From positions 83,452,001 to 83,516,000 of the forward strand of contig OX597823.1 in assembly GCA_951406725.2 (NCBI GenBank): DNA of 64,000 bases. The letters run 5' to 3'. The stretch is from Octopus vulgaris (lineage: Eukaryota). Position numbers and translations under genes: made by a program. Under the pieces are notes generated by a model. It did not search any database. It had not been told where the DNA came from and worked only from the letters and a program-made list of their open reading frames with translations. Below are positions 1 to 63,921 of this stretch, piece after piece; position 1 is the first letter of the stretch; each line of letters begins with the position of its first letter.

Positions 1-391
1 AATAAAAACACATGTACTATATATTTGGTGTTACTTTGCTTCAGTGTTATTTATTTTTTACATTAATCTTAATCTTATTTCGGCCAGAGTTCTTTCGTCA
101 CACTCCTGTGACCGCATCAGTGGTCCTTTGTTTTCTTCTTACTTATTTGTGTCTCTCCTTACTAACCGTCAGCCATTTTCAGAAAATGGTTAGTAAGGAG
201 AGACACAAATAAGAAAGAAGAAAAGAAAGGACCACTGATGCGGTCACAGGAGTGTGACGAAAGAACTCTGGCCGAAATAAGATTAAGATTAATGTAAAAA
301 ATAAATAACACTGAAGCAAAGTAACACCAAATATATAGTGCCTGTGTTTTTATTGGCTAAACTGGCAAAATCACCATTCCTAAATACAACA
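1..391. mobile_element. Fold-back (inverted-duplicated) pLTR-like repeat ending in (TA)n; partial HHR-like core
   Basis: 1-~167 is a near-perfect reverse complement of ~187-354. The plus arm has CTGATGC-GGTCA...TGGCC-GAAA (235-277) and runs into (TA)n at ~392. The window may truncate it on the left. Confidence 0.6.
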
Positions 392-16659: not shown

Positions 16660-17133
16660 TCCGTTTTTTTTCTCCTTTTGTTAATTATTAGGTAATATAT
16701 AGTCGAGAGTATACTTTGCCTGTGAAGTAAAGATGGGATGGCATGGATGGAATACTTTTAATCATAAGTCTCAGTTGGATTCAAAACCAACCTGTCTATA
16801 AATTATCGGCTTAACTACAGGACTGCAAATCCCCATCGCGATTTTCGTTTATTATTTATTTTTTTAAAATTTCACTTGTATCAGTCATTGGACTGCGGTC
16901 ATGCTGGAGTCCTGCCTTGAAGGGTTTTAACCAAATGAAGCAACTCCGATAAGTGCGGGTGTTTTTTTTTTTTTCGTATTTTTACTCTTAAGTTTGGTGC
17001 TTAATCTATCAGTAAGTCTTTGCCGAACCGCTAAGTTACGGGTGACGTAAACAGACCAGCACTAGTTGTCAAGCGGTGTTGGCGGACAAACACGCATATA
17101 TATATATAATGTGTGTGTGTGTGTGTATATATA

Positions 17134-17202
<69 letters not shown>

Positions 17203-17208
<6 letters not shown>

Positions 17209-18065
17209 TTAATAAGGGTGAGAGAATTAGATACTAATTTAATAGTATATCTATTCTACACCAAGTGGCCTAGTGCTCCGAGAAACCTGGATTATTATAA
17301 TATTTTATAATATATTATAATATTTTTACAAAATAAATATAAGAGAGTGGTCACTATATGGCTCACTCTAGCACCAGTTAATCCAAAAGGTTTCAACCAC
17401 AAAAATACATGCTTCCCATGAAAGTCAGTACGATTGTTAGCTCACACGGACAGGGCAAATAAAAAATAACAAAATACAGATTATTTTGGGACAATTGTTT
17501 CGCTATTAATGAATTAAATGTAATTTTACTTACAATAAAATCCACTTGTAGCTCTTCAGCCAAAACTATCTGGATGAAATCCACTCAATCACACGCCAGA
17601 TTTTACCATAACGATAAATACGCGTGTGGTTCAATTGATTACATCCGACGTTATAATTCAAATGCCCCAACTAACAGCGCGCCAAACTTTCACGGAAAAC
17701 AAATACAGCATTTAGAAATAAATGCAGCATAATTATAATTAATTAATAAGGGTGAGAGAATTAGATACTAATTTAATAGTATATCTATTCTACACCAAGT
17801 GGCCTAGTGCTCCGAGAAACCTGGATTATTATAATATTTTATAATATATTATAATATTTTTACAAAATAAATATAAGAGAGTGGTCACTATATGGCTCAC
17901 TCTAGCACCAGTTAATCCAAAAGGTTTCAACCACAAAAATACATGCTTCCCATGAAAGTCAGTACGATTGTTAGCTCACACGGACAGGGCAAATAAAAAA
18001 TAACAAAATACAGATTATTTTGGGACAATTGTTTCGCTATTAATGAATTAAATGTAATTTTACTT

Positions 18066-18068
<3 letters not shown>
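17203..18068 (-). mobile_element. HHR-bearing non-coding tandem element (534-bp unit, ~1.6 copies) inserted in (TA)n
   Basis: 17203-17535 is repeated exactly at 17737-18069, with (TA)n on both sides. Shares AATAAGGGTGA...ACACCAAGTGGCCTAG with 53787-54845. Confidence 0.8.
17484..17565 (-). ncRNA. Type I hammerhead ribozyme, canonical core
   Basis: Minus strand UUUUGG-CUGAAGA-GCUA-(43 nt)-UAGC-GAAA-CAAUUG-UC-CCAAAA: 6-bp stem I, 4-bp stem II, palindromic stem III, GUC triplet. Confidence 0.85.
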
Positions 18069-18106
<38 letters not shown>

Positions 18107-23892: not shown

Positions 23893-23936
23893 GAACAACT
23901 AATTGTAAAAGTGCTGGAAAGAGAGAAACAGATACG

Positions 23937-25007
23937 ATGGCCGTTATCCCATCGTGCTTCCAACTCACTGAAGAATTCGGTATTAAATGGATTCACCCAG
24001 ACTATTACAGTTGTTTGGAATATATAGGAGGAGGCAGTTTCAGTAACGTGTCATTTGCTCATAACAAACTTACTGAATCGAAGGTGGCCATTAAGCAACT
24101 GTATCGGCCTTTCTCTTCGTTGACTACAACTAAACGTACATACCGCGAGGTTTGCTTGCTAAAACACATGAAACACAAAAATGTTATCGATCTGGTCGAT
24201 ATATTTACAACAGCAATATGTAAAAATGACTTGGATAATCTCTACCTCGTTTCCACATTCTATCCGAAAGATTTGAAAACGATGTTGAAAAGCGAGGAGA
24301 TGGGGTTACCCCTCATCAAGTCCCTGGTCTACCAAATATTCTGTGGACTCTATTATATTCATTCAGCCGGGGTCATCCACCGTGACTTAAAACCCAACAA
24401 CATCGGTGTTACGTCTGATAATTGCATCAAAATTATGGATTTTGGCCTGGCCCGACAGGTCAGTCTTAAAATGACGGGTTATGTGCAAACCCGATGGTAC
24501 CGAGCTCCAGAAATAATCCTTAACTGGGAAAAATACAATCAGACAGCCGATGTGTGGTCTGTGGGTTGTATCCTGGGTGAAATGTTAACAAAACAAGCTG
24601 TGATTCGAGGGCATAATTTCAATGACCAGGTAAAGCAGATATTATGTCTAGTCGGAACACCGGATTATGAAATGCTAAAGAAATTTACCAGTGAAGATGC
24701 TATGGATAGGATTAAACAATTCGGAACCTTTGTAAAACAAGATTTCTCAACTTTTTTTAATACCACAGATGAAGATACACTTAATCTTTTGGATCAAATA
24801 TTTAATTTAGATGTAGATAACCGAATCTCTGTGGACGATGCAATGAAACATCGTTTCTTCGAGGACCATTTCCAAAAGACTGACTGTAAGCATGCGCCAA
24901 ATTTTTGTGACAGATTTTGCGATATTGAATTGAACCAAATGGAATGGTTAGGACTTATTTACGAGGAAATCAAAGACTTCAACTCTAATACACAAACACA
25001 CACATAA
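23937..25007 (+). CDS. Intronless divergent p38-family MAP kinase (MAPK11-14-like), 356 aa
   Basis: Uninterrupted ORF with GGGSFS loop, VAIK, REVCLLKHMKH, HRDLKPNN, DFGLAR, MTGYVQTRWYRAPE and DVWSVGCI. TGY is diagnostic of p38. Confidence 0.95.
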   Translation: MAVIPSCFQLTEEFGIKWIHPDYYSCLEYIGGGSFSNVSFAHNKLTESKVAIKQLYRPFSSLTTTKRTYREVCLLKHMKHKNVIDLVDIFTTAICKNDLDNLYLVSTFYPKDLKTMLKSEEMGLPLIKSLVYQIFCGLYYIHSAGVIHRDLKPNNIGVTSDNCIKIMDFGLARQVSLKMTGYVQTRWYRAPEIILNWEKYNQTADVWSVGCILGEMLTKQAVIRGHNFNDQVKQILCLVGTPDYEMLKKFTSEDAMDRIKQFGTFVKQDFSTFFNTTDEDTLNLLDQIFNLDVDNRISVDDAMKHRFFEDHFQKTDCKHAPNFCDRFCDIELNQMEWLGLIYEEIKDFNSNTQTHT

Positions 25008-29952: not shown

Positions 29953-30590
29953 CGAATGGTGAAGATCGAATTAAAGGATTGAAGGTTCTTTAGAGAAACG
30001 GGTGGGAATGGCGATGTTTTTTAGGGTGGCATAGAGAAAGAAAAGGAAAGCAAAGCAGATTGGTGGTTATAAGTTCAAAACATTTAAACGGTAGACAAAT
30101 GTATGTATGTATGTATGAAAAAGAAGGGAGAAAATCTTCTTAGCTTGCTTATGGACATCGCTGTAAGTCGGAGAAGAAATGATAGTGAATGGTGAAGATC
30201 GAATTAAAGGATTGAAGGTTCTTTAGAGAAACGGGCGGGAATGGCGATGTTTTTTAGGGTGGCATAGAGAAAGAAAAGGAAAGCAAAGCAGATTGGTGGT
30301 TATAAGTTCAAAACATTTAAACGGTAGACAAATGTATGTATGTATGTATGAAAAAGAAGGGAGAAAAGCTTATTAGCTTGCTTATGGACATCGCTGTAAG
30401 TCGGAGAAGAAATGATAGTGAATGGTGAAGATCGAATTAAAGGATTGAAGGTTCTTTAGAGAAACGGGCGGGAATGGCGATGTTTTTTTTTAGGGTGGCA
30501 TAGAGAAAGAAAGGAAAGCAAAGCAGATTGGTGGTTATAAGTTGAAAACATTTAAACGGTAGACAAATGTATGTATGTATGTATGTATGG
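29953..30590. repeat. ~233-bp tandem repeat, ~2.7 copies
   Basis: GAATGGTGAAGATCGAATTAAAGG starts at ~29954, 30187 and 30420. Confidence 0.9.
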
Positions 30591-41589: not shown

Positions 41590-44500
41590 GTCCACTAGAT
41601 AAACTGTCTACAGGTGCAAATTCAATCTACTGTCCACTAGCGCAAATTAGATCAATTGTCCACGAGCGCAAATTCGATCAACTGTCCAATATGCAAATTA
41701 GATCAACTGTCCACTAGCGCAAATTCGATCAACTGCCTACGAGCGCAAATTCAATCTACTGTCCACTAGCGCAAATTGGATCAATTGTCCACGAGCGCAA
41801 ATTCGATCAACTGTCCAATATGCAAATTAGATCAACTGTCCACTAGCGCAAATTCGATCAACTGCCTACGAGCGCAAATTCAATCAACTGTCCAATATGC
41901 AAATTCGATCAACTGTCCACTAGCGCAAATTCGATCAACTGCCCACAACTTTTCAATAGTGAAAATTCGATGAACTGCCCACAAGCACAAATTGGATGAA
42001 CTGTCCAATAGTGAAAATTCGATCAACTGTCCACTTGCGAAAATTCGATCAACTGTCCACTAGTGAAGATTCGATCAATTGTCCACTATCGAAAATTTGA
42101 TCAACTGTCCACTTGTGCAAATTCGATCAACTGTCCACTTGTGTAAATTCGATTATCTGTTAACTAGCAAAAATTCGATCAACTGTCCACTTGCGAAAAT
42201 TCGATCAACTGTCCATTTGTGAAAATTCGATCAATTGACCACTATTAAAAATTCGATCAACTGTCCACATGTGCATATTCGATCAACTGTCAGTTTGTGC
42301 AAATTCGATCAACTGTCCACTAGTGCAAAGTCGATCAACTGTCCACTGGCAAAAATTCGATCAAATGTCCACTTGCAAAAATTCGATCAACTGTCCACTT
42401 GTGCAAATTCGACCAACTGTCCACTTGTGCAAATTCGATCAACTGTCCACTTGTGCAGATTCGATCATCTGTTCACTAGCAAAAATTCGATCAACTGTCC
42501 ACTGGCGAAAATTAGATCAACTGACCATTTGTGAAAATTCGATCAATTGTCCACAAGCCAAAATTCGATCAACTGTCCACTGGTGCAAATTCGATCAATT
42601 GACCACTATAAAAAATTCGATCAACTGTCCACCTGTGCATATTCGATCAACTGTCAGTTTATGCAAATTCGATCAACTGTCCACTAGTGCAAAGTCGATC
42701 AACTGTCCACTGGCAAAAATTCGATCAACTGTCAACTTGCAAAAATTCGATCAACTGTCCACTAGTGCAAATTCGATCAACTGTACACTTGTGCAAATTC
42801 GATCAACTGTCCACTTGTGCAAATTCGATTAACTGTCCACTTGTGCAAAATTCGATCAACTGTCAACTATTAAAAATTCGATCAACTGTCCACCTGTGCA
42901 TATTCGATCAACTGTCCATTTGTTAAAATTCGATCAACTGTCCACTAGTGCAAATTCGATCAACTCTCCACTGGCAAAAATTCGATCAACTGTCCACTTC
43001 TGCAAATTCGATCAACTGTCCACTAGCGAAAATTCGATCAACTGTCCACTATAAAAAATTCGATCAACTGTCCACTTGTGCAAATTCGATCAACTGTCCA
43101 CTACTGAAAATTCGATCAACTGTCCACTAGCGAAAATTCGATCACTTCTGCAAATTCGATCAACTGTCCACTTGTGCAAATTCGATCAACTGTCCACTAG
43201 CGAAAATTCGATCAACTGTCCACTATTAAAAATTCGATCAACTGTCCACTAGTGGAAATTCGATCAACTCTCCACTGGCAAAAATTCGATCAACTGTCCA
43301 CTTGTGCAAATTCGATCAACTGTCCAATAGTGAAGATTCGATCAATTGTCCACTTGTGTAAATTCGATCAACTGTCCACTACTGAAAATTCGATCAACTG
43401 TCCACTTCTGCAAATTCGATCAACTGTCCACTTCTGCAAATTCGATCAACTGTCCATAAGTAAAAATTCGATCAACTGTCCATTTGTTAAACTTCGATCA
43501 ACTGTCCACTAGCGAAAATTCGATCAACTGTCCACTTGCGCAAATTCGATCAACTGTCCACTTGTGCAATTTCGATCAACTGTCCACAAGCGAAAATTCG
43601 ATCAACTGTCCACTACTGAAAATTCGATCAACTGTCCACTTGTGCAAATTCGATCAACTGTCCATTTGTTAAACTTCGATCAACTGTCCACTAGCGAAAA
43701 TACGACCAACTGTCCACTTGTGCAAATTCGATCAACTGTCCCCTAGCGAAAATTCGATCAACTGTTCACAAGCGAAAATTCGATCAACTGTCCACTTGTG
43801 CAAATTCGATCAACTGTCCACTAGCAAAAATTCGATCAACTGTCCATTTGTTAAACTTCGCTCAACTGTCCACTAGTGCAAATTCGATCAACTGTCCACT
43901 TTCAAAAATCCGATCAACTGTCCATTTATTAAAATCCGATCAACTGTCCATTTATTAAAATTCGATCAACTGTCCACTAGTGCAAATTCGATCAACTCTC
44001 CACTGGCAAAAATTCGATCAACTGTCCACTTGTGCAAATTCAATCAACTGTCCACTTGTGAAAATCCGATGAACTCTCCACTTGCGCAAATTCGTTCAAC
44101 TGTCCACTACTGAAAATTCGATCAACTGTCCACTAGCGAAAAATTCGATCAACTGTCTGTTTGTTAAACTGCGATCAACTGTCCACTAGCGAAAATTCGA
44201 TCAACTGTCCACTTATGCAAATTCGATCAATTGTCCACTTGTGCAGATTCGATCAACTGTCCACTAGCGAAAATTCGATCAACTGTCCACTATCAAAAAT
44301 TCGATCAACTGTCCACTAGCGAAAATTCGATCAACTGTCCACTTGTGCAAATTCGATCATCAACTGTCCACTTGCGCAAATTCGATCAACTGTCCACTAC
44401 CGAAAATTCGATCAACTGTTCACAAGCGAAAATTCGATCAACTGTCCACTAGCGAAAATTCGATCAACTGTCCATTTGTTAAACTTCGATCAACTGTCCA

Positions 44501-44995
44501 CTAGCGAAAATTCGATCAACTGTCCACTTGTGCAAATTCGATCAACTGTCCAATAGCGAAAATTCGATCAACTGTCCACTTGTGCAAATTCGATCAACTG
44601 TTCACTTGTGTATATTCGATCAACTGTCCACTAGCCAAAATTGGATCAACTGTCCACTTGCCAAAATTCGATCAACTCTGTACTAGCGCATATTCGATCA
44701 AATATCCACTAGCGTAAATTCGATCAACTGTCCACAAGCCCAAATTCGATTAAGTTTCCAGTTGTGCAAATTCGATCAACTGTCCACTAGTGCAAATTCG
44801 ATCGTCCGCTAGCGAAAATTCGATCAGCTGTCCACTAGCGAAAATTCGATCAACTATCCATTTGTGAAAATTCTATCAACTGTCCATCTTGTGCAAAATC
44901 GATCAAATGTCCTCTGACGCAAATTCAATCTACTGTCCACTAGCGCAAATTCACTCAACGGTCCACTCGCTCACATTCGATCTATTGACCACTAG
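41590..44995. repeat. 26-bp tandem satellite, ~130 units
   Basis: Constant AAATTCGATCAACTGTCCAC plus ~6 variable nt (TTGTGC, TAGCGA, TAGTGC, TACTGA, TATTAA, TGGCAA). Confidence 0.97.
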
Positions 44996-51229: not shown

Positions 51230-52161
51230 TCTACTATAAGCACACGGTCTGAATTTAGGAGCGGGGGTGGCGGTGAATAGTCGATTACATCGACCCCAGT
51301 GTTTCACTGGTACTTAATTTATCGACCCTGAAACGATGAAAGATCTCAGCGGAATTTGCATTCAGAACATAGCAGCAACCGAAATACCGCTAAGAATTTC
51401 GCCCGGCGTGCTAACGATTCTTTTTTAATCTAGGTACTTATTTAATCGACCCCGAAAGGATGAAAGGCAAAGTCGACCTCGGCGGAATTTGATTTCAGAA
51501 CGTAACGGCAGACTAATTACCTATTTCTTTACTACCCACAAGGGGCTAAACACAGAGAGGAAAAACAAGGACAGACAAACGGATTAAGTCGATTATATCG
51601 ACCCCACTGTGTAACTGGTACTTATTTAATCGACCTCGAAAGGATGAAAGGCAAAGTCGACCTCGGCGGAATTTGAACTCAGAACATAAAGACAGACGAA
51701 ATACCGCTAAGCATTTCGCCCAGCGTGCAAACATTTCTTATTTCTTTATTGTCAACAAGGGGCTAAACATAGAGGGGACAAACAAGGACAGACAAAGGGA
51801 TTTAGTCGATTACATCGACTCCAGTGCATAACTGGTGCTTAATTTATCGATCCCGAAAGGATGAAAGGCAAAGTCGACCTCGTCGGAATTTGAATTCAAA
51901 ACGTAAAGACGGACGAAATACCTATTTCTATTTCTTTAGTACCCATATGGGGCTGAACACAGAGAGTACAAACAAGGCCAGACAAACGGATAGAGTCGAT
52001 TATATCGACTCCAGTGCGCAACTGGTACTTATTTAATCGACTCCGAAAGGATGAAAGGCAAAGTTGACCTCGGCGGAATTTGAACTAAGAACGTAATGGC
52101 AGACGAAATACCGCTCAGTATTTCGCCCGGCGTGCTAACGTTTCTGCCAGATCGCCGCCTT
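51230..52161 (-). mobile_element. Head-to-tail array of Nin/Deu-domain SINE units
   Basis: GAAAGGATGAAAGGCAAAGTCGACCTCGGCGGAATTTGAAC recurs ~5 times at ~190-bp spacing. Further copies at 50130-50392 (-), 52780-52991 (+) and 62676-62906 (+). Confidence 0.85.
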
Positions 52162-53788: not shown

Positions 53789-53941
53789 AGTAATAAGAGA
53801 GAGACCACATGTGGTCACTCTAACGCTAGAAATAGATCCGCAAAGGGAATCCACCACTAAAGAATTGTTCTCAAGCATTAATTCAACACGCCAAGAATGT
53901 AAGCGGGCAGGACAAATGAAAAATAACGAAAAAATAGATTA

Positions 53942-54017
53942 ACTCTATACAATTGTTTCATCGTTAATAGATTGTGTAATTTTACTTACATAATCATTTT
54001 CGAATCCTCAGTAGAGT
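53942..54017 (-). ncRNA. Type I hammerhead ribozyme (U-U at base of stem II)
   Basis: ACUCUA-CUGAGGA-UUCG-(37 nt)-CGAU-GAAA-CAAUUG-UA-UAGAGU. Confidence 0.75.
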
Positions 54018-54501
54018 ATATCGAAAATATAATTTGCTGAACCGAACGCCAAAATCCATACGAAGCCGAGCATAGGCGAACGGCACAGCCGATTATATTT
54101 GCAGTTACGTTCAAATATCCCCACTCCCCACTTTTAGTGGTGGATTCCCTTTGCGGATCTATTTCTAGCGTTAGAGTGACCACATGTGGTCTCTCACTTA
54201 TTACTTGTATTAATAATTTTTACTGTATCACAGTTTTTTTACGCTAGGCCACTTGGTGTTTTAAATTGATGTTATTAATTAATATTCAATTTTTTTCACC
54301 CTTATTGTGATTTTAATTATAAATTAATATGTTCTCAAACCGGCAGTAAATTACTGGGGTAGTATTTACATCCGGTATTTTCAACGCGCCAGGAGTGGGG
54401 ATATTTGAACGTAACTGCAAATATAATCGGCTGTGCCGTTCGCCTTTGCTCGGCTTCGTATGGATTTTGGCGTTCGGTTCAGCAAATTATATTTTCGATA
54501 T

Positions 54502-54577
54502 ACTCTACTGAGGATTCGAAAATGATTATGTAAGTAAATTTACACAATCTATTAACGATGAAACAATTGTATAGAGT
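54502..54577 (+). ncRNA. Type I hammerhead ribozyme, inverted twin of 53942-54017
   Basis: Same motif on the plus strand. Confidence 0.75.
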
Positions 54578-54836
54578 TAATCTATTTTTTCGTTATTTTT
54601 CATTTGTCCTGCCCGCTTACATTCTTGGCGTGTTGAATTAATGCTTGAGAACAATTCTTTAGTGGTGGATTCCCTTTGCGGATCTATTTCTAGCGTTAGA
54701 GTCACCACATGTGGTCTCTCTCTTATTACATGTATTAATAATTTTTACTGTATCACACTTTTTTTACGCTAGGCCGCTTGGTGTTTTAAATTGATGTTAT
54801 CAATTAATATTCAATTTTTTTTCACCCTTATTGTGA

Positions 54837-54899
<63 letters not shown>

Positions 54900-56319: not shown

Positions 56320-56392
56320 ATGTGGTACCGGTTTCAGATTTTTCAAGATATGTCTGCACACATATACTTGATTTATCTTCATCAGCCAACAT
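56320..56392 (-). ncRNA. Type I hammerhead ribozyme with extended stem II
   Basis: AUG-U-UGG-CUGAUGA-AGAU-aaa-UCAAG-u-AUAUGU-gugcag-ACAUAU-CUUGA-aaa-AUCU-GAAA-CCGG-UA-CCA-CAU. Confidence 0.85.
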
Positions 56393-56696: not shown

Positions 56697-56769
56697 ATGT
56701 TGGCTGATGAAGATAAATCAAGTATATGTGTGCAGACATATCTTGAAAAATCTGAAACCGATACCACAT
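56697..56769 (+). ncRNA. Type I hammerhead ribozyme, inverted twin with a G>A change in stem III
   Basis: As 56320-56392 but GAAACCGAUA instead of GAAACCGGUA. Confidence 0.7.
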
Positions 56770-60859: not shown

Positions 60860-61412
60860 AGTTCAGCCAAATTTAGATTCAGATGAATATGGTACTTAAG
60901 TTAAAGGCACCAGAATTTTGTATGGTATTATCCATATAAATCAAATGGGGTGATTATAATCAAAATAAGCAACAAAGATATCCAAGGTAGAGTAGTATAA
61001 TTGTTTCATGCTATTTCATTTTATTAAACCGTGTAAGTATTACATCAGTTTTAAAATGTCGAGCAATCTTCAGCCACATATAAATTTTTTCAATTAAACG
61101 GACAATGCGCATTCTTATACCTTTTCGTTTGCCAACATTGCAAAGAGGGTAGATATATAGACAGAGAGGTTAATTTCATCATTAAGAACATGATGGTAGT
61201 ATGTTCATTCTCCGGATTTATCTACCCTCTTTGTAATGTTGGCAAATGAAAAGGTATAAGAATGCGCATTGTCCGTTTAATTGAAAAATTCTATATGTGG
61301 CTGAAGATTGCTCGACATTTTAAAACTGATGTAATACTTACACGGTTTAATAAAATGAAGTAGTATGAAACAATTATACTACTCTACCTTGGATATCCTT
61401 GTTGTTTATTTA
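60860..61412. mobile_element. HHR-bearing element with inverted duplication, in (TA)n
   Basis: ~60963-61155 is inverted at ~61219-61412. HHR motifs at 60992-61077 (-) and 61297-61382 (+): GUGG-CUGAAGA-UUGC...GCAU-GAAA-CAAUUA-UA-CUAC. Confidence 0.7.
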
Positions 61413-61705: not shown

Positions 61706-62270
61706 TTATCATATTATACAACCCTAAAACATCACCCACAACCCCTTAAAAATACTAATCTTAACGCCAGCAATAATAAAGAACCTAACACCGGTTCCTT
61801 ACTAGATAGCAATCTCCTCACAAGATCATCCGGAACACCCCCTACAAGTCTATGCTGCTGCAGACGCCTAGCCTCCTGCCCTTTCGATAACCACTGTCTT
61901 ACAAAAAACATCACTTATAAGTGTACAGTATCAACTGCCAACTGTAACTCCATATATATAGGCTCATATAGCCCCACCTTCAAAGGTAGAATGAGCAACC
62001 ACTACTCCAGCTTCAAGTCCCAAACAAAATCCAACAGTACATCGTTATCTCAGATTATCAATAAACTAAAGTTGGATTCAACCCCTTACACTCTCAAGTG
62101 GCCCCATTGTCACCCACGCCATGCCATACAACAGCTATAATAACAAGTGTGATCTCTGCATAGCCGAGGTCTTGGCTATTTTGCAATCCACGGATTGTCA
62201 CAATGAACGCAGCAGTATAATATTTACCTGCAATCATCGGTCACTAAATCTATCCTCAAAATACAAATAA
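61706..62270 (+). pseudogene. Penelope-like element GIY-YIG endonuclease domain with one frameshift
   Basis: CCCRRLASCPFDNHCLTKNITYKCTV...IYIGSYSPTFKGRMSNHYSSFK...TSLSQIINKLK...YTLKW/IV...PYNSYNNKCDLCIAE...NERS...CNH. This is the Cys-rich PLE endonuclease signature. Confidence 0.8.
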
Positions 62271-63843: not shown

Positions 63844-63921
63844 ATCCCCGGCCTGAAGAGCAGCCTGCAGTATACACCTCACTTGGATATTTACCACTTA
63901 TGAAACATATGTAGCCCGGAT
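63844..63921 (+). ncRNA. Hammerhead ribozyme motif in the presumed 3' pLTR of the Penelope-like element
   Basis: AUCC-CC-GGC-CUGAAGA-GC...AU-GAAA-CAUAUG-UA-GCC-C-GGAU: core and palindromic stem III intact, stem II weak. Confidence 0.65.

What the first reader, a model, noticed from the sequence alone, without database searches (positions are those of the whole stretch)
17484..17565. Canonical HHR with an unusually large loop II and stems that covary across subfamilies
Seen: stem I is UUUUGG/CCAAAA here, ACUCUA/UAGAGU at 53942/54502 and GUGG/CUAC at 60992/61297. Stem II is GCUA/UAGC, UUCG/CGAU and UUGC/GCAU respectively. CUGARGA, GAAA and ACAAUURU are kept throughout. Different stem sequences with pairing preserved argue for selection on the fold. 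Loop II is ~37-50 nt, long enough for tight HHR descriptors to miss it (inference).
Basis: partly seen in the sequence, partly recalled or inferred. Interest (0 to 1): 0.8.

Follow-up and report, generated by a model that had tools for sequence, protein, structure and literature searches.

The report
Long-armed hammerhead in Penelope-mobilised repeat
This is a real hammerhead (self-cutting RNA) motif whose second arm is predicted to be a long hairpin rather than a big loop; it sits in a 534-base protein-free repeat with about two thousand copies that was likely spread by Penelope-like jumping genes carrying a similar long-armed motif, and its cutting is predicted, not shown.

Summary
The motif is real: a type I hammerhead on the minus strand (17566-17483) with an intact core. 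Helices I and II covary across 15 distinct families (55/60 and 41/45 cells paired; permuted 29 and 20). The 'large loop II' folds as a 44-77-nt extended helix II with a 3-6-nt end loop. Only the 17.5k copy is canonical: the 54k and 61k copies have U10.1-U11.1, the 61k pair also breaks helix III, and each pair is one inverted insertion. The motif lies in a 534-bp ORF-less tandem unit (2,053 exact matches, control 0) inserted in (TA)n. Long-form motifs number about 6,000 (control 19). Intact Hydra-type Penelope-like elements (PLEs) in the genome carry the long form in their pseudo-LTRs. In 23 of 23 inverted insertions only one arm carries a ~110-nt 'tail', a PLE signature. Reading: a non-LTR retrozyme mobilised by Hydra PLEs. 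Cleavage and circles are untested. It is a new variant of a known kind: the 26 published Hydra rows have domain II of 26 nt or less. The scan noted PLE-type (TA)n repeats on other DNA, not this one.

The parts
17483..17566 (-). Type I hammerhead: helix I 17566-17560/17489-17483; core CUGAAGA 17559-17553; GAAA 17501-17498; palindromic helix III ACAAUUGU 17498-17491; C17 at 17490 (predicted cut 3' of it)
   Evidence: z -4.3 for 17476-17573
17502..17552 (-). Domain II, 51 nt: 4 bp, 2x2 internal loop, 8 bp, 4x3 internal loop, 5 bp, 6-nt end loop (extended helix II, predicted)
   Evidence: (-12.6 kcal/mol, z -3.5)
17477..17572 (-). Outer extension of helix I (17572-17568 with 17481-17477) beyond an A.A mismatch; its 3' strand UAAUCU is invariant in 12 of 12 related sequences
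17200..17733 (-). One full 534-bp ORF-less repeat unit (31% GC), highly self-paired as RNA
   Evidence: (z -6.8)
17734..18069 (-). Upstream partial unit, 5'-truncated inside helix II (keeps GAAA, helix III and GUC, lacks CUGANGA)
17200..17300 (-). 'Tail' between the two 3'-end sites of the family (short site about 17296-17310, long site 17200)
17126..17203 (.). (TA)n target on the 3' side of the insertion; (TA)n also at 18069-18103
53790..54845 (.). Related 525-bp-unit family as a head-to-head inverted insertion; hammerheads 53942-54017(-) and 54502-54577(+) with U10.1-U11.1 and GUA; tail only on the + arm
60860..61411 (.). Inverted pair of pseudo-LTR fragments of a Hydra-type PLE; hammerheads 60992-61077(-) and 61297-61382(+), both with a broken C15.2-G16.2 pair; tail only on the - arm
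   Evidence: (77% over 139 nt to PLE locus L057)
56326..56385 (-). Fourth long-helix-II hammerhead family (helix III ACCGGU, GUA); mirror copy 56704-56763(+) has G16.2 changed to A
61850..62270 (+). Frameshifted GIY-YIG endonuclease fragment with Hydra-type CxCX5C, CxxC..E and N..CxH motifs; probably a separate, older insertion beyond a (TA)n tract

Best explanation
The motif is a type I hammerhead with a predicted long helix II, carried once per unit by a 534-bp protein-free tandem repeat that is likely a non-LTR retrozyme copied into (TA)n by Hydra-clade Penelope-like elements. SHOWN: intact core, covarying helices, tandem and inverted arrays in (TA)n, two fixed 3' ends with scattered 5' ends, and intact RT-endonuclease elements in the same genome with a long-armed hammerhead in their pseudo-LTRs. 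INFERRED: arrays are transcribed; neighbouring hammerheads cut after GUC (17490), best as dimers through the palindromic helix III; the 534-nt monomer is ligated into a self-paired circle; the PLE protein nicks (TA)n and starts reverse transcription at one of two internal AU-rich sites, running round the circle (or along an uncut multimer) to give arrays of 0.2-12.8 units; the second nick primes at the other site, so an inverted insertion has the tail on one arm only. The long helix II is likely a structural extension. Its first internal loop lies 4 bp from the core, where loop 2 normally sits, and would be the partner for the helix I mismatch region.
For: Core and helices. Abundance: 6,056 vs 19; 2,053 vs 0 for this family; 40 near-full matches at 99-100% identity. 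Covariation, one sequence per 80% cluster (15 clusters): helix I pairs 1-4 55/60 paired vs 29.3 permuted, helix II pairs 2-4 41/45 vs 20.1, 0 of 5,000 permutations as high, slid registers 32-39%. Twelve close relatives: 90.9% of 364 cells paired vs 80.1% shuffled and 33-41% slid. Domain II z <= -2 in 22 of 29 representatives. Helix III varies but stays self-complementary (ACAAUUGU, ACGAUCGU, ACAUAUGU, ACCGGU; ACGAUUGU with G-U). Ends: of 63 array segments in 39 loci, 32 end at the short and 31 at the long 3' site; 23 of 23 inverted insertions have one of each, matching the PLE 'tail' and its two RT start sites (PMC8557442 Fig. 2 legend; PMC11167929). Partners: a 957-aa ORF flanked by two hammerheads 4,650 nt apart (L180); Hydra motifs in L176 and L184; a long-form hammerhead in 10 of 11 PLE loci examined. 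U10.1-U11.1 occurs in 14 of 26 published Hydra rows (my count) and in a cleaving axolotl retrozyme. Weak hint of transcription: clustered T>C and A>G differences in two guessed-RNA runs, nearly absent from a third run.
Against: There is no cleavage or circRNA data. 0 of 63 5' ends fall at the cleavage site (about 1.4 expected if uniform), so the insertions record no cleavage. In vitro, only 1 of 9 Xenopus retrozyme dimers cleaved; the anole PLE hammerhead cut only with protein and was dispensable for insertion. No autonomous element with a 17.5k-type pseudo-LTR was found: no match in 16 RT loci and only a 24-nt hit in 9 loci, so the driver of this family is inferred. In the extension most changes are one-sided G-U swaps, and only 2 of 13 pairs change on both sides. 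Some PLE copies fold weakly (L176 whole motif z -0.5, L184 z +0.2, L187 domain II z -1.3). Pfam does not call the RT. Relatedness was handled by clustering, not by a tree-based test.
Confidence: 0.66

Rival explanations
1. Same element and same PLE driver, but the hammerhead is kept mainly as a protein-binding fold or a protein-assisted, rarely cutting ribozyme; the template is uncut multimeric RNA and no circle is involved.
For: No 5' ends at the cleavage site. The anole PLE uses unprocessed RNA and hammerhead mutants still insert. 8 of 9 Xenopus dimers did not cleave. Pair 10.1-11.1 is paired in only 7 of 15 clusters.
Against: The 17.5k family keeps every catalytic residue with G10.1-C11.1 and GUC. 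Palindromic helix III is preserved through several sequence changes, which is expected if dimer catalysis is selected. Arrays of up to 12.8 units in a dispersed family are most simply made from a circle (inference).
Confidence: 0.24
2. The 534-bp unit is only the truncated pseudo-LTR end of an autonomous PLE family not found here, amplified locally as a minisatellite by unequal crossing-over.
For: The 61k pair is such a fragment. My search for a 17.5k-type autonomous element was limited.
Against: Units join head-to-tail with no ORF in all 39 loci. Multi-unit arrays occur on both arms of fresh inverted insertions at 99-100% identity on many contigs, so the multimer was the inserted copy.
Confidence: 0.08
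3. Chance resemblance in AT-rich repeat DNA, with no selection on structure.
For: The region is AT-rich and Rfam gives no hit.
Against: 6,056 vs 19 control matches; covariation; a model built without the 56k family finds it.
Confidence: 0.01

Closest known systems
Non-LTR retrozymes of animals (Cervera and de la Pena 2020, PMC7229834: passages and section 15 read; Li, Clavereau and Pollet 2026, bioRxiv 2026.07.22.740005: parts 1-3 of 5 read, abstract to discussion)
   Same: ORF-less, low-GC tandem repeat with one type I hammerhead per unit; helix III of 2 bp plus a tetraloop; self-paired monomer; proposed PLE origin.
   Different: 534-nt unit against about 170-400 nt in the 2020 paper (within the 51-972 bp of the preprint); domain II of 51 nt; dispersed, often inverted arrays in (TA)n with a one-sided tail; neither paper, in what I read, covers a cephalopod.
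Hammerheads of Hydra-clade Penelope-like elements (Craig et al. 2021, PMC8557442: section 11, passages, supplement Files S1 and S2 and parts of the alignment read)
   Same: (TA)n targeting, frequent U10.1-U11.1, short helix III, GUA/GUU/GUC sites, position near the 3' end; an octopus member (Hydra-1_Obim) is listed.
   Different: All 26 Hydra rows have loop 2 of 3-10 nt and domain II of 26 nt or less (my count); here 44-77 nt. The intact elements here repeat at 4.65 kb, against under 3 kb for most described.
Minimal hammerheads of PLE pseudo-LTRs (Cervera and de la Pena 2014, PMC4209133: parts 1-2 of 4 read)
   Same: Palindromic helix III, proposed dimer cleavage, many covarying families per genome, copies on opposite strands 100-700 bp apart.
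   Different: Helix II there is 6-8 bp with a conserved G10.1-C11.1; here about 17 predicted pairs and a relaxed 10.1-11.1.
PLE-X1_sMoe and PLE-X1_sTam hammerheads of spike mosses (File S2 of PMC8557442)
   Same: A long loop 2 (35 and 29 nt by my count) in a PLE hammerhead: a precedent for a long domain II.
   Different: Plant, endonuclease-less, 28S-targeting elements, marked as deviating; single rows with no covariation shown.

Membership tests
Type I hammerhead ribozyme | Core C3-A9 (CUGANGA), G12-A14, A15.1-U16.1, H17 | tested here: met
   (17.5k, 54k, 56.3k; the 61k pair and the 56.7k copy break 15.2-16.2)
Type I hammerhead ribozyme | Helices I and II around the core, helix I open-ended, supported by covariation | tested here: met
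Type I hammerhead ribozyme | G10.1-C11.1 pair | tested here: met
   Met at 17.5k; not met at 54k and 61k (U.U); paired in 7 of 15 clusters
Type I hammerhead ribozyme | Site-specific self-cleavage | not testable with these tools
   Only contigs were available
Type I hammerhead ribozyme | Canonical loop 1-loop 2 tertiary contact | not tested
   No terminal loop 2 at the usual place; an internal-loop substitute is inference
Non-LTR retrozyme | Tandem units each with a type I hammerhead | tested here: met
   (14 matches in L120)
Non-LTR retrozyme | No protein coding; GC under 45% | tested here: met
   longest sense stop-free frame 63 aa, longest sense ATG frame 17 aa; GC 31%
Non-LTR retrozyme | Expressed as a monomeric circular RNA | tested here: inconclusive
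   head-to-tail joint and a closed 565-nt contig (534+31) in guessed-RNA runs; tandem DNA or multimer RNA would give the same
Non-LTR retrozyme | Sequence kinship to a PLE pseudo-LTR | tested here: inconclusive
   Shown for the 61k family; for 17.5k only shared helix III, architecture and tail pattern
Hydra-clade PLE (partner elements L176, L180, L184) | RT with RWK and DKT motifs; C-terminal GIY-YIG with CxCX5C linker and CxxC/CxH beside E and N | tested here: met
   Read by eye (L184 has RWA for RWK); GIY-YIG E 4e-5 in L057; RT support and a weak maturase-RT hit (E 0.99); no Pfam RT hit
Hydra-clade PLE (partner elements L176, L180, L184) | (TA)n insertion and hammerhead in the pseudo-LTR | tested here: met
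Hydra-clade PLE (partner elements L176, L180, L184) | Placement in the Hydra clade on an RT tree | not tested
   No tree was built
Autonomous PLE (the 17.5k element itself) | RT-endonuclease ORF | tested here: not met

The most novel reading that the evidence does not exclude
The extended helix II is a selected functional module: a handle for the Hydra RT-endonuclease or a substitute tertiary-contact partner, shared by autonomous elements and their circular-RNA parasites. The one-sided tail records a rule that the two target nicks are primed at two different fixed sites of one circular template. Long-armed hammerheads of this kind would be a large, overlooked class in animal genomes, possibly including some of the 'half-core' cases (core halves 35-50 nt apart) noted in Naiad PLEs.
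Probability: 0.22. Interest if true: 0.75.

Novelty: new variant of a known kind. Interest (0 to 1): 0.5.

Why it matters
It adds several thousand hammerheads of an architecture that short-spacer descriptors would skip. It also gives a young, near-identical retrozyme family alongside intact candidate driver elements in one genome. That makes two open questions directly testable: whether PLE proteins mobilise non-LTR retrozymes (so far argued from co-occurrence and trees), and what the hammerhead and the PLE tail do in transposition. The 23-of-23 one-sided tail is a sharp mechanistic constraint. The ribozyme class, the PLE link and palindromic helix III are already known, which caps the surprise.

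Tried and rejected
Rfam: no hammerhead among 91 window hits or at E <= 10 on the motif; the short-arm control was also missed, so it says nothing about the long arm. RNA runs: no RNA holder listed on record; only contigs could be laid, so ends and strand of an RNA cannot be read. Pile-up of 5' ends at the cleavage site: none (0 of 63; 8 values of '1' are mostly alignment breaks, because my reference unit was shifted by 14 nt). MAFFT across all long families misaligns the middle of domain II, and unconstrained RNAalifold recovered only 9 and 5 distal pairs, so I used core-anchored counts. Three rows with domain II over 66 nt (internal duplications or a wrong anchor) were dropped before the counts (80 of 83 kept). 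The 90% clustering split some families, so the 15-cluster set is the safer one. The GIY-YIG fragment at 61850-62270 as the parent of the 61k pair: not supported, as it lies beyond a (TA)n tract and is 41% identical to the intact family. Two same-strand hammerheads 5.6 kb apart (L204) flank no ORF of 250 aa or more. L183 had no long-form match; L185, L186 and L188-L190 were not tested with the general pattern. Lunse et al. 2017 was not held, so only its title was seen in reference lists; it may already describe long-stem variants. Literature searches with no report of this variant. bioRxiv supplements and paper figures could not be seen. The scan's own notes held nothing on this sequence or genome.

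Full report
OBSERVATION. The finding lies on the minus strand. A strict scan of the window for type I hammerheads returns one site, 17566-17483: a 7-bp helix I, CUGAAGA, a 51-nt domain II closed by GCUA/UAGC, GAAA, ACAAUUGU and C17 at 17490. The other copies cited are present but imperfect. The 54k pair has U.U at 10.1-11.1 and GUA. The 61k pair has U.U, and ACAAUUAU breaks C15.2-G16.2. Each pair is the two arms of one inverted repeat, so the window offers three independent examples, plus a fourth family at 56.3k/56.7k with helix III ACCGGU. A covariance model trained without that family finds it at E 2e-4 and 2e-3 and misses the 61k pair.

THE 'LOOP' IS A HELIX. Domain II folds as one hairpin with internal loops and a 3-6-nt end loop: z -3.5 (17.5k), -3.1 (54k), -4.6 (61k) and -3.8 (56k) against dinucleotide shuffles. 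22 of 29 long-form representatives have z <= -2 against mononucleotide shuffles. Helix I also continues past a mismatch for 5 bp.

ABUNDANCE. The window is G000:C10:83452001-83516000 in a 2.8-Gb genome. CTGANGA-N35-65-GAAACAATTGTH has 6,056 matches (control 19). The same helix III with a 6-34-nt domain II has 1,941 (control 8), and the ACCGGU form has 672 (control 52). The 17.5k family alone has 2,053 exact 29-mer matches (control 0). Domain II lengths in the fetched loci fall at 13-19 or 44-77 nt; these loci are the first listed hits, mostly on contig C1. Runs from five coded organisms hold over half of the unit's words.

COVARIATION. The search patterns did not require pairing. Among 15 long-form clusters under 80% identity, helix I pairs 1-4 are paired in 55 of 60 cells (permuted 29.3) and helix II pairs 2-4 in 41 of 45 (permuted 20.1), with several pair types per position. 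Slid registers give 32-39%. Pair 10.1-11.1 is paired in only 7 of 15 (U.U in 6). In 12 close relatives of the 17.5k motif, 90.9% of 364 cells pair (shuffled 80.1%, slid 33-41%), and 13 pairs change on both sides. In the extension the support is weaker: 12 of 13 pairs stay paired in most rows, but only 2 show two-sided changes. Helix III changes sequence and stays self-complementary. The tool warns that relatedness can inflate such counts, and no tree-based test was run.

THE CARRIER. The motif sits in a 534-bp unit (17200-17733), preceded by a 5'-truncated copy, between (TA)n tracts. It has no sense ORF and 31% GC, and folds strongly as a whole (z -6.8). In 39 loci, 63 array segments of 0.2-12.8 units have scattered 5' ends, none at the cleavage site, and two 3' ends about 110 nt apart (32 and 31 segments). 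All 23 head-to-head inverted insertions have one arm ending at each site (two loci have extra rearranged pieces, and one arm ran to a locus edge and was completed from the overlapping locus). The 54k family (525-bp unit, homologous downstream region and tail), the 61k pair and an intact PLE show the same one-sided tail. Craig 2021 describes a 30-40-bp PLE tail often present at one end only, and Frangieh 2024 maps it to two internal RT start sites.

THE LIKELY DRIVER. A GIY-YIG fragment in the window (61850-62270) has the CxCX5C, CxxC..E and N..CxH motifs that define the Hydra clade. It led to RT-bearing loci, many with open frames of 800-1,090 codons. L176 (980 codons) and L184 (842) show DKT, CxCX5C and the C-terminal motifs. 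Of 16 such loci, 11 were examined for a long-form hammerhead and 10 have one: L176-L181, L182, L187, L191 (in L191 it is on the strand opposite the RT) and L184. In L180 two copies 4,650 nt apart flank a 957-aa ORF, with the predicted cut about 210 nt upstream of the ATG. The 61k arm aligns with this pseudo-LTR through the tail. No intact element with the 17.5k-type sequence was found, so for this family the link rests on shared target, tail rule, helix III and architecture.

EXPRESSION HINT. Contigs of two guessed-RNA runs from different studies show T>C at 17406, 17413, 17429 and 17437 in 9-18% of depth (X1) and 7-38% (X2), against under 0.1% in a third, much larger run. Single contigs also carry runs of A>G or T>C. 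That pattern would fit A-to-I editing, mostly of the ribozyme strand. But the runs are not on record as RNA, no matched DNA exists, and diverged copies could mimic it. A 565-nt contig closes head-to-tail (534+31), as a circle, a multimer or tandem DNA would.

MECHANISM. Shown: structure, covariation, arrays, ends, partner elements. Inferred: transcription of arrays; cleavage after GUC, helped by dimer formation through palindromic helix III (a 2-bp stem with tetraloop may also allow monomer cleavage); circularisation; target-primed reverse transcription by the Hydra protein from two internal sites. The absence of 5' ends at the cut site argues against a cleaved linear monomer as template but does not separate a circle from an uncut multimer. 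Published tests urge caution: 1 of 9 Xenopus dimers cleaved, and the anole PLE ribozyme needed protein and was dispensable in vitro.

COMPARISON AND VERDICT. It works like a non-LTR retrozyme and meets the sequence criteria; circular RNA and cleavage remain open. The U.U pair and short helix III are known Hydra features. What is new is the 44-77-nt helix II in thousands of copies of both autonomous and non-autonomous elements; published Hydra rows stop at 26 nt. Two spike-moss PLE rows are a precedent for a long loop 2, and Lunse 2017 could not be read. New variant of a known kind; interest 0.5.

Noticed in passing
window 23895-25007 (+): Uninterrupted 370-codon frame for a protein kinase (Pfam Pkinase E 5e-58) with a TGY motif, p38 MAPK-like by recall; intronless, so possibly a retrocopy.
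   Followed up: no
window 63853-63913 (+): Hammerhead-like core with palindromic ACAUAUGU, the helix III of the 842-aa PLE family; domain II does not fold (z +1.1), probably decayed.
   Followed up: partly
window 41598-44995: 26-bp satellite of about 116-130 copies with 52- and 78-bp higher periods.
   Followed up: no
window 1-354: Near-perfect 167-bp inverted repeat with a 20-nt spacer, cut by the window edge.
   Followed up: no
window 29954-30585 and 51522-52112: 233-bp tandem of 2.7 copies at 98% identity; tandem copies of an abundant SINE-like repeat.
   Followed up: no
L062:5208-5303 (-), L066:5516 (-): Hammerheads with a 77-nt, predicted branched domain II next to GIY-YIG matches: a still longer variant.
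   Followed up: partly
L068, L121-L150: Short-helix-II families with the same ACAAUUGU helix III, often as close inverted pairs, with A.A, U-A or A.G at 10.1-11.1.
   Followed up: partly
G000, loci (L176-L191): Dozens of Hydra-type RT frames of 800-1,090 open codons in at least two families, suggesting recent activity; Pfam does not recognise their RT.
   Followed up: partly
window 17356-17437: Clustered A>G and T>C differences in guessed-RNA contigs, a possible A-to-I hyper-editing pattern on both strands.
   Followed up: partly
PMC8557442 File S1: Eight Naiad PLEs, two from cephalopods, are marked 'HHR_half_core' (core halves 35-50 nt apart); some may be long-armed or permuted hammerheads. 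Not checked.
   Followed up: no
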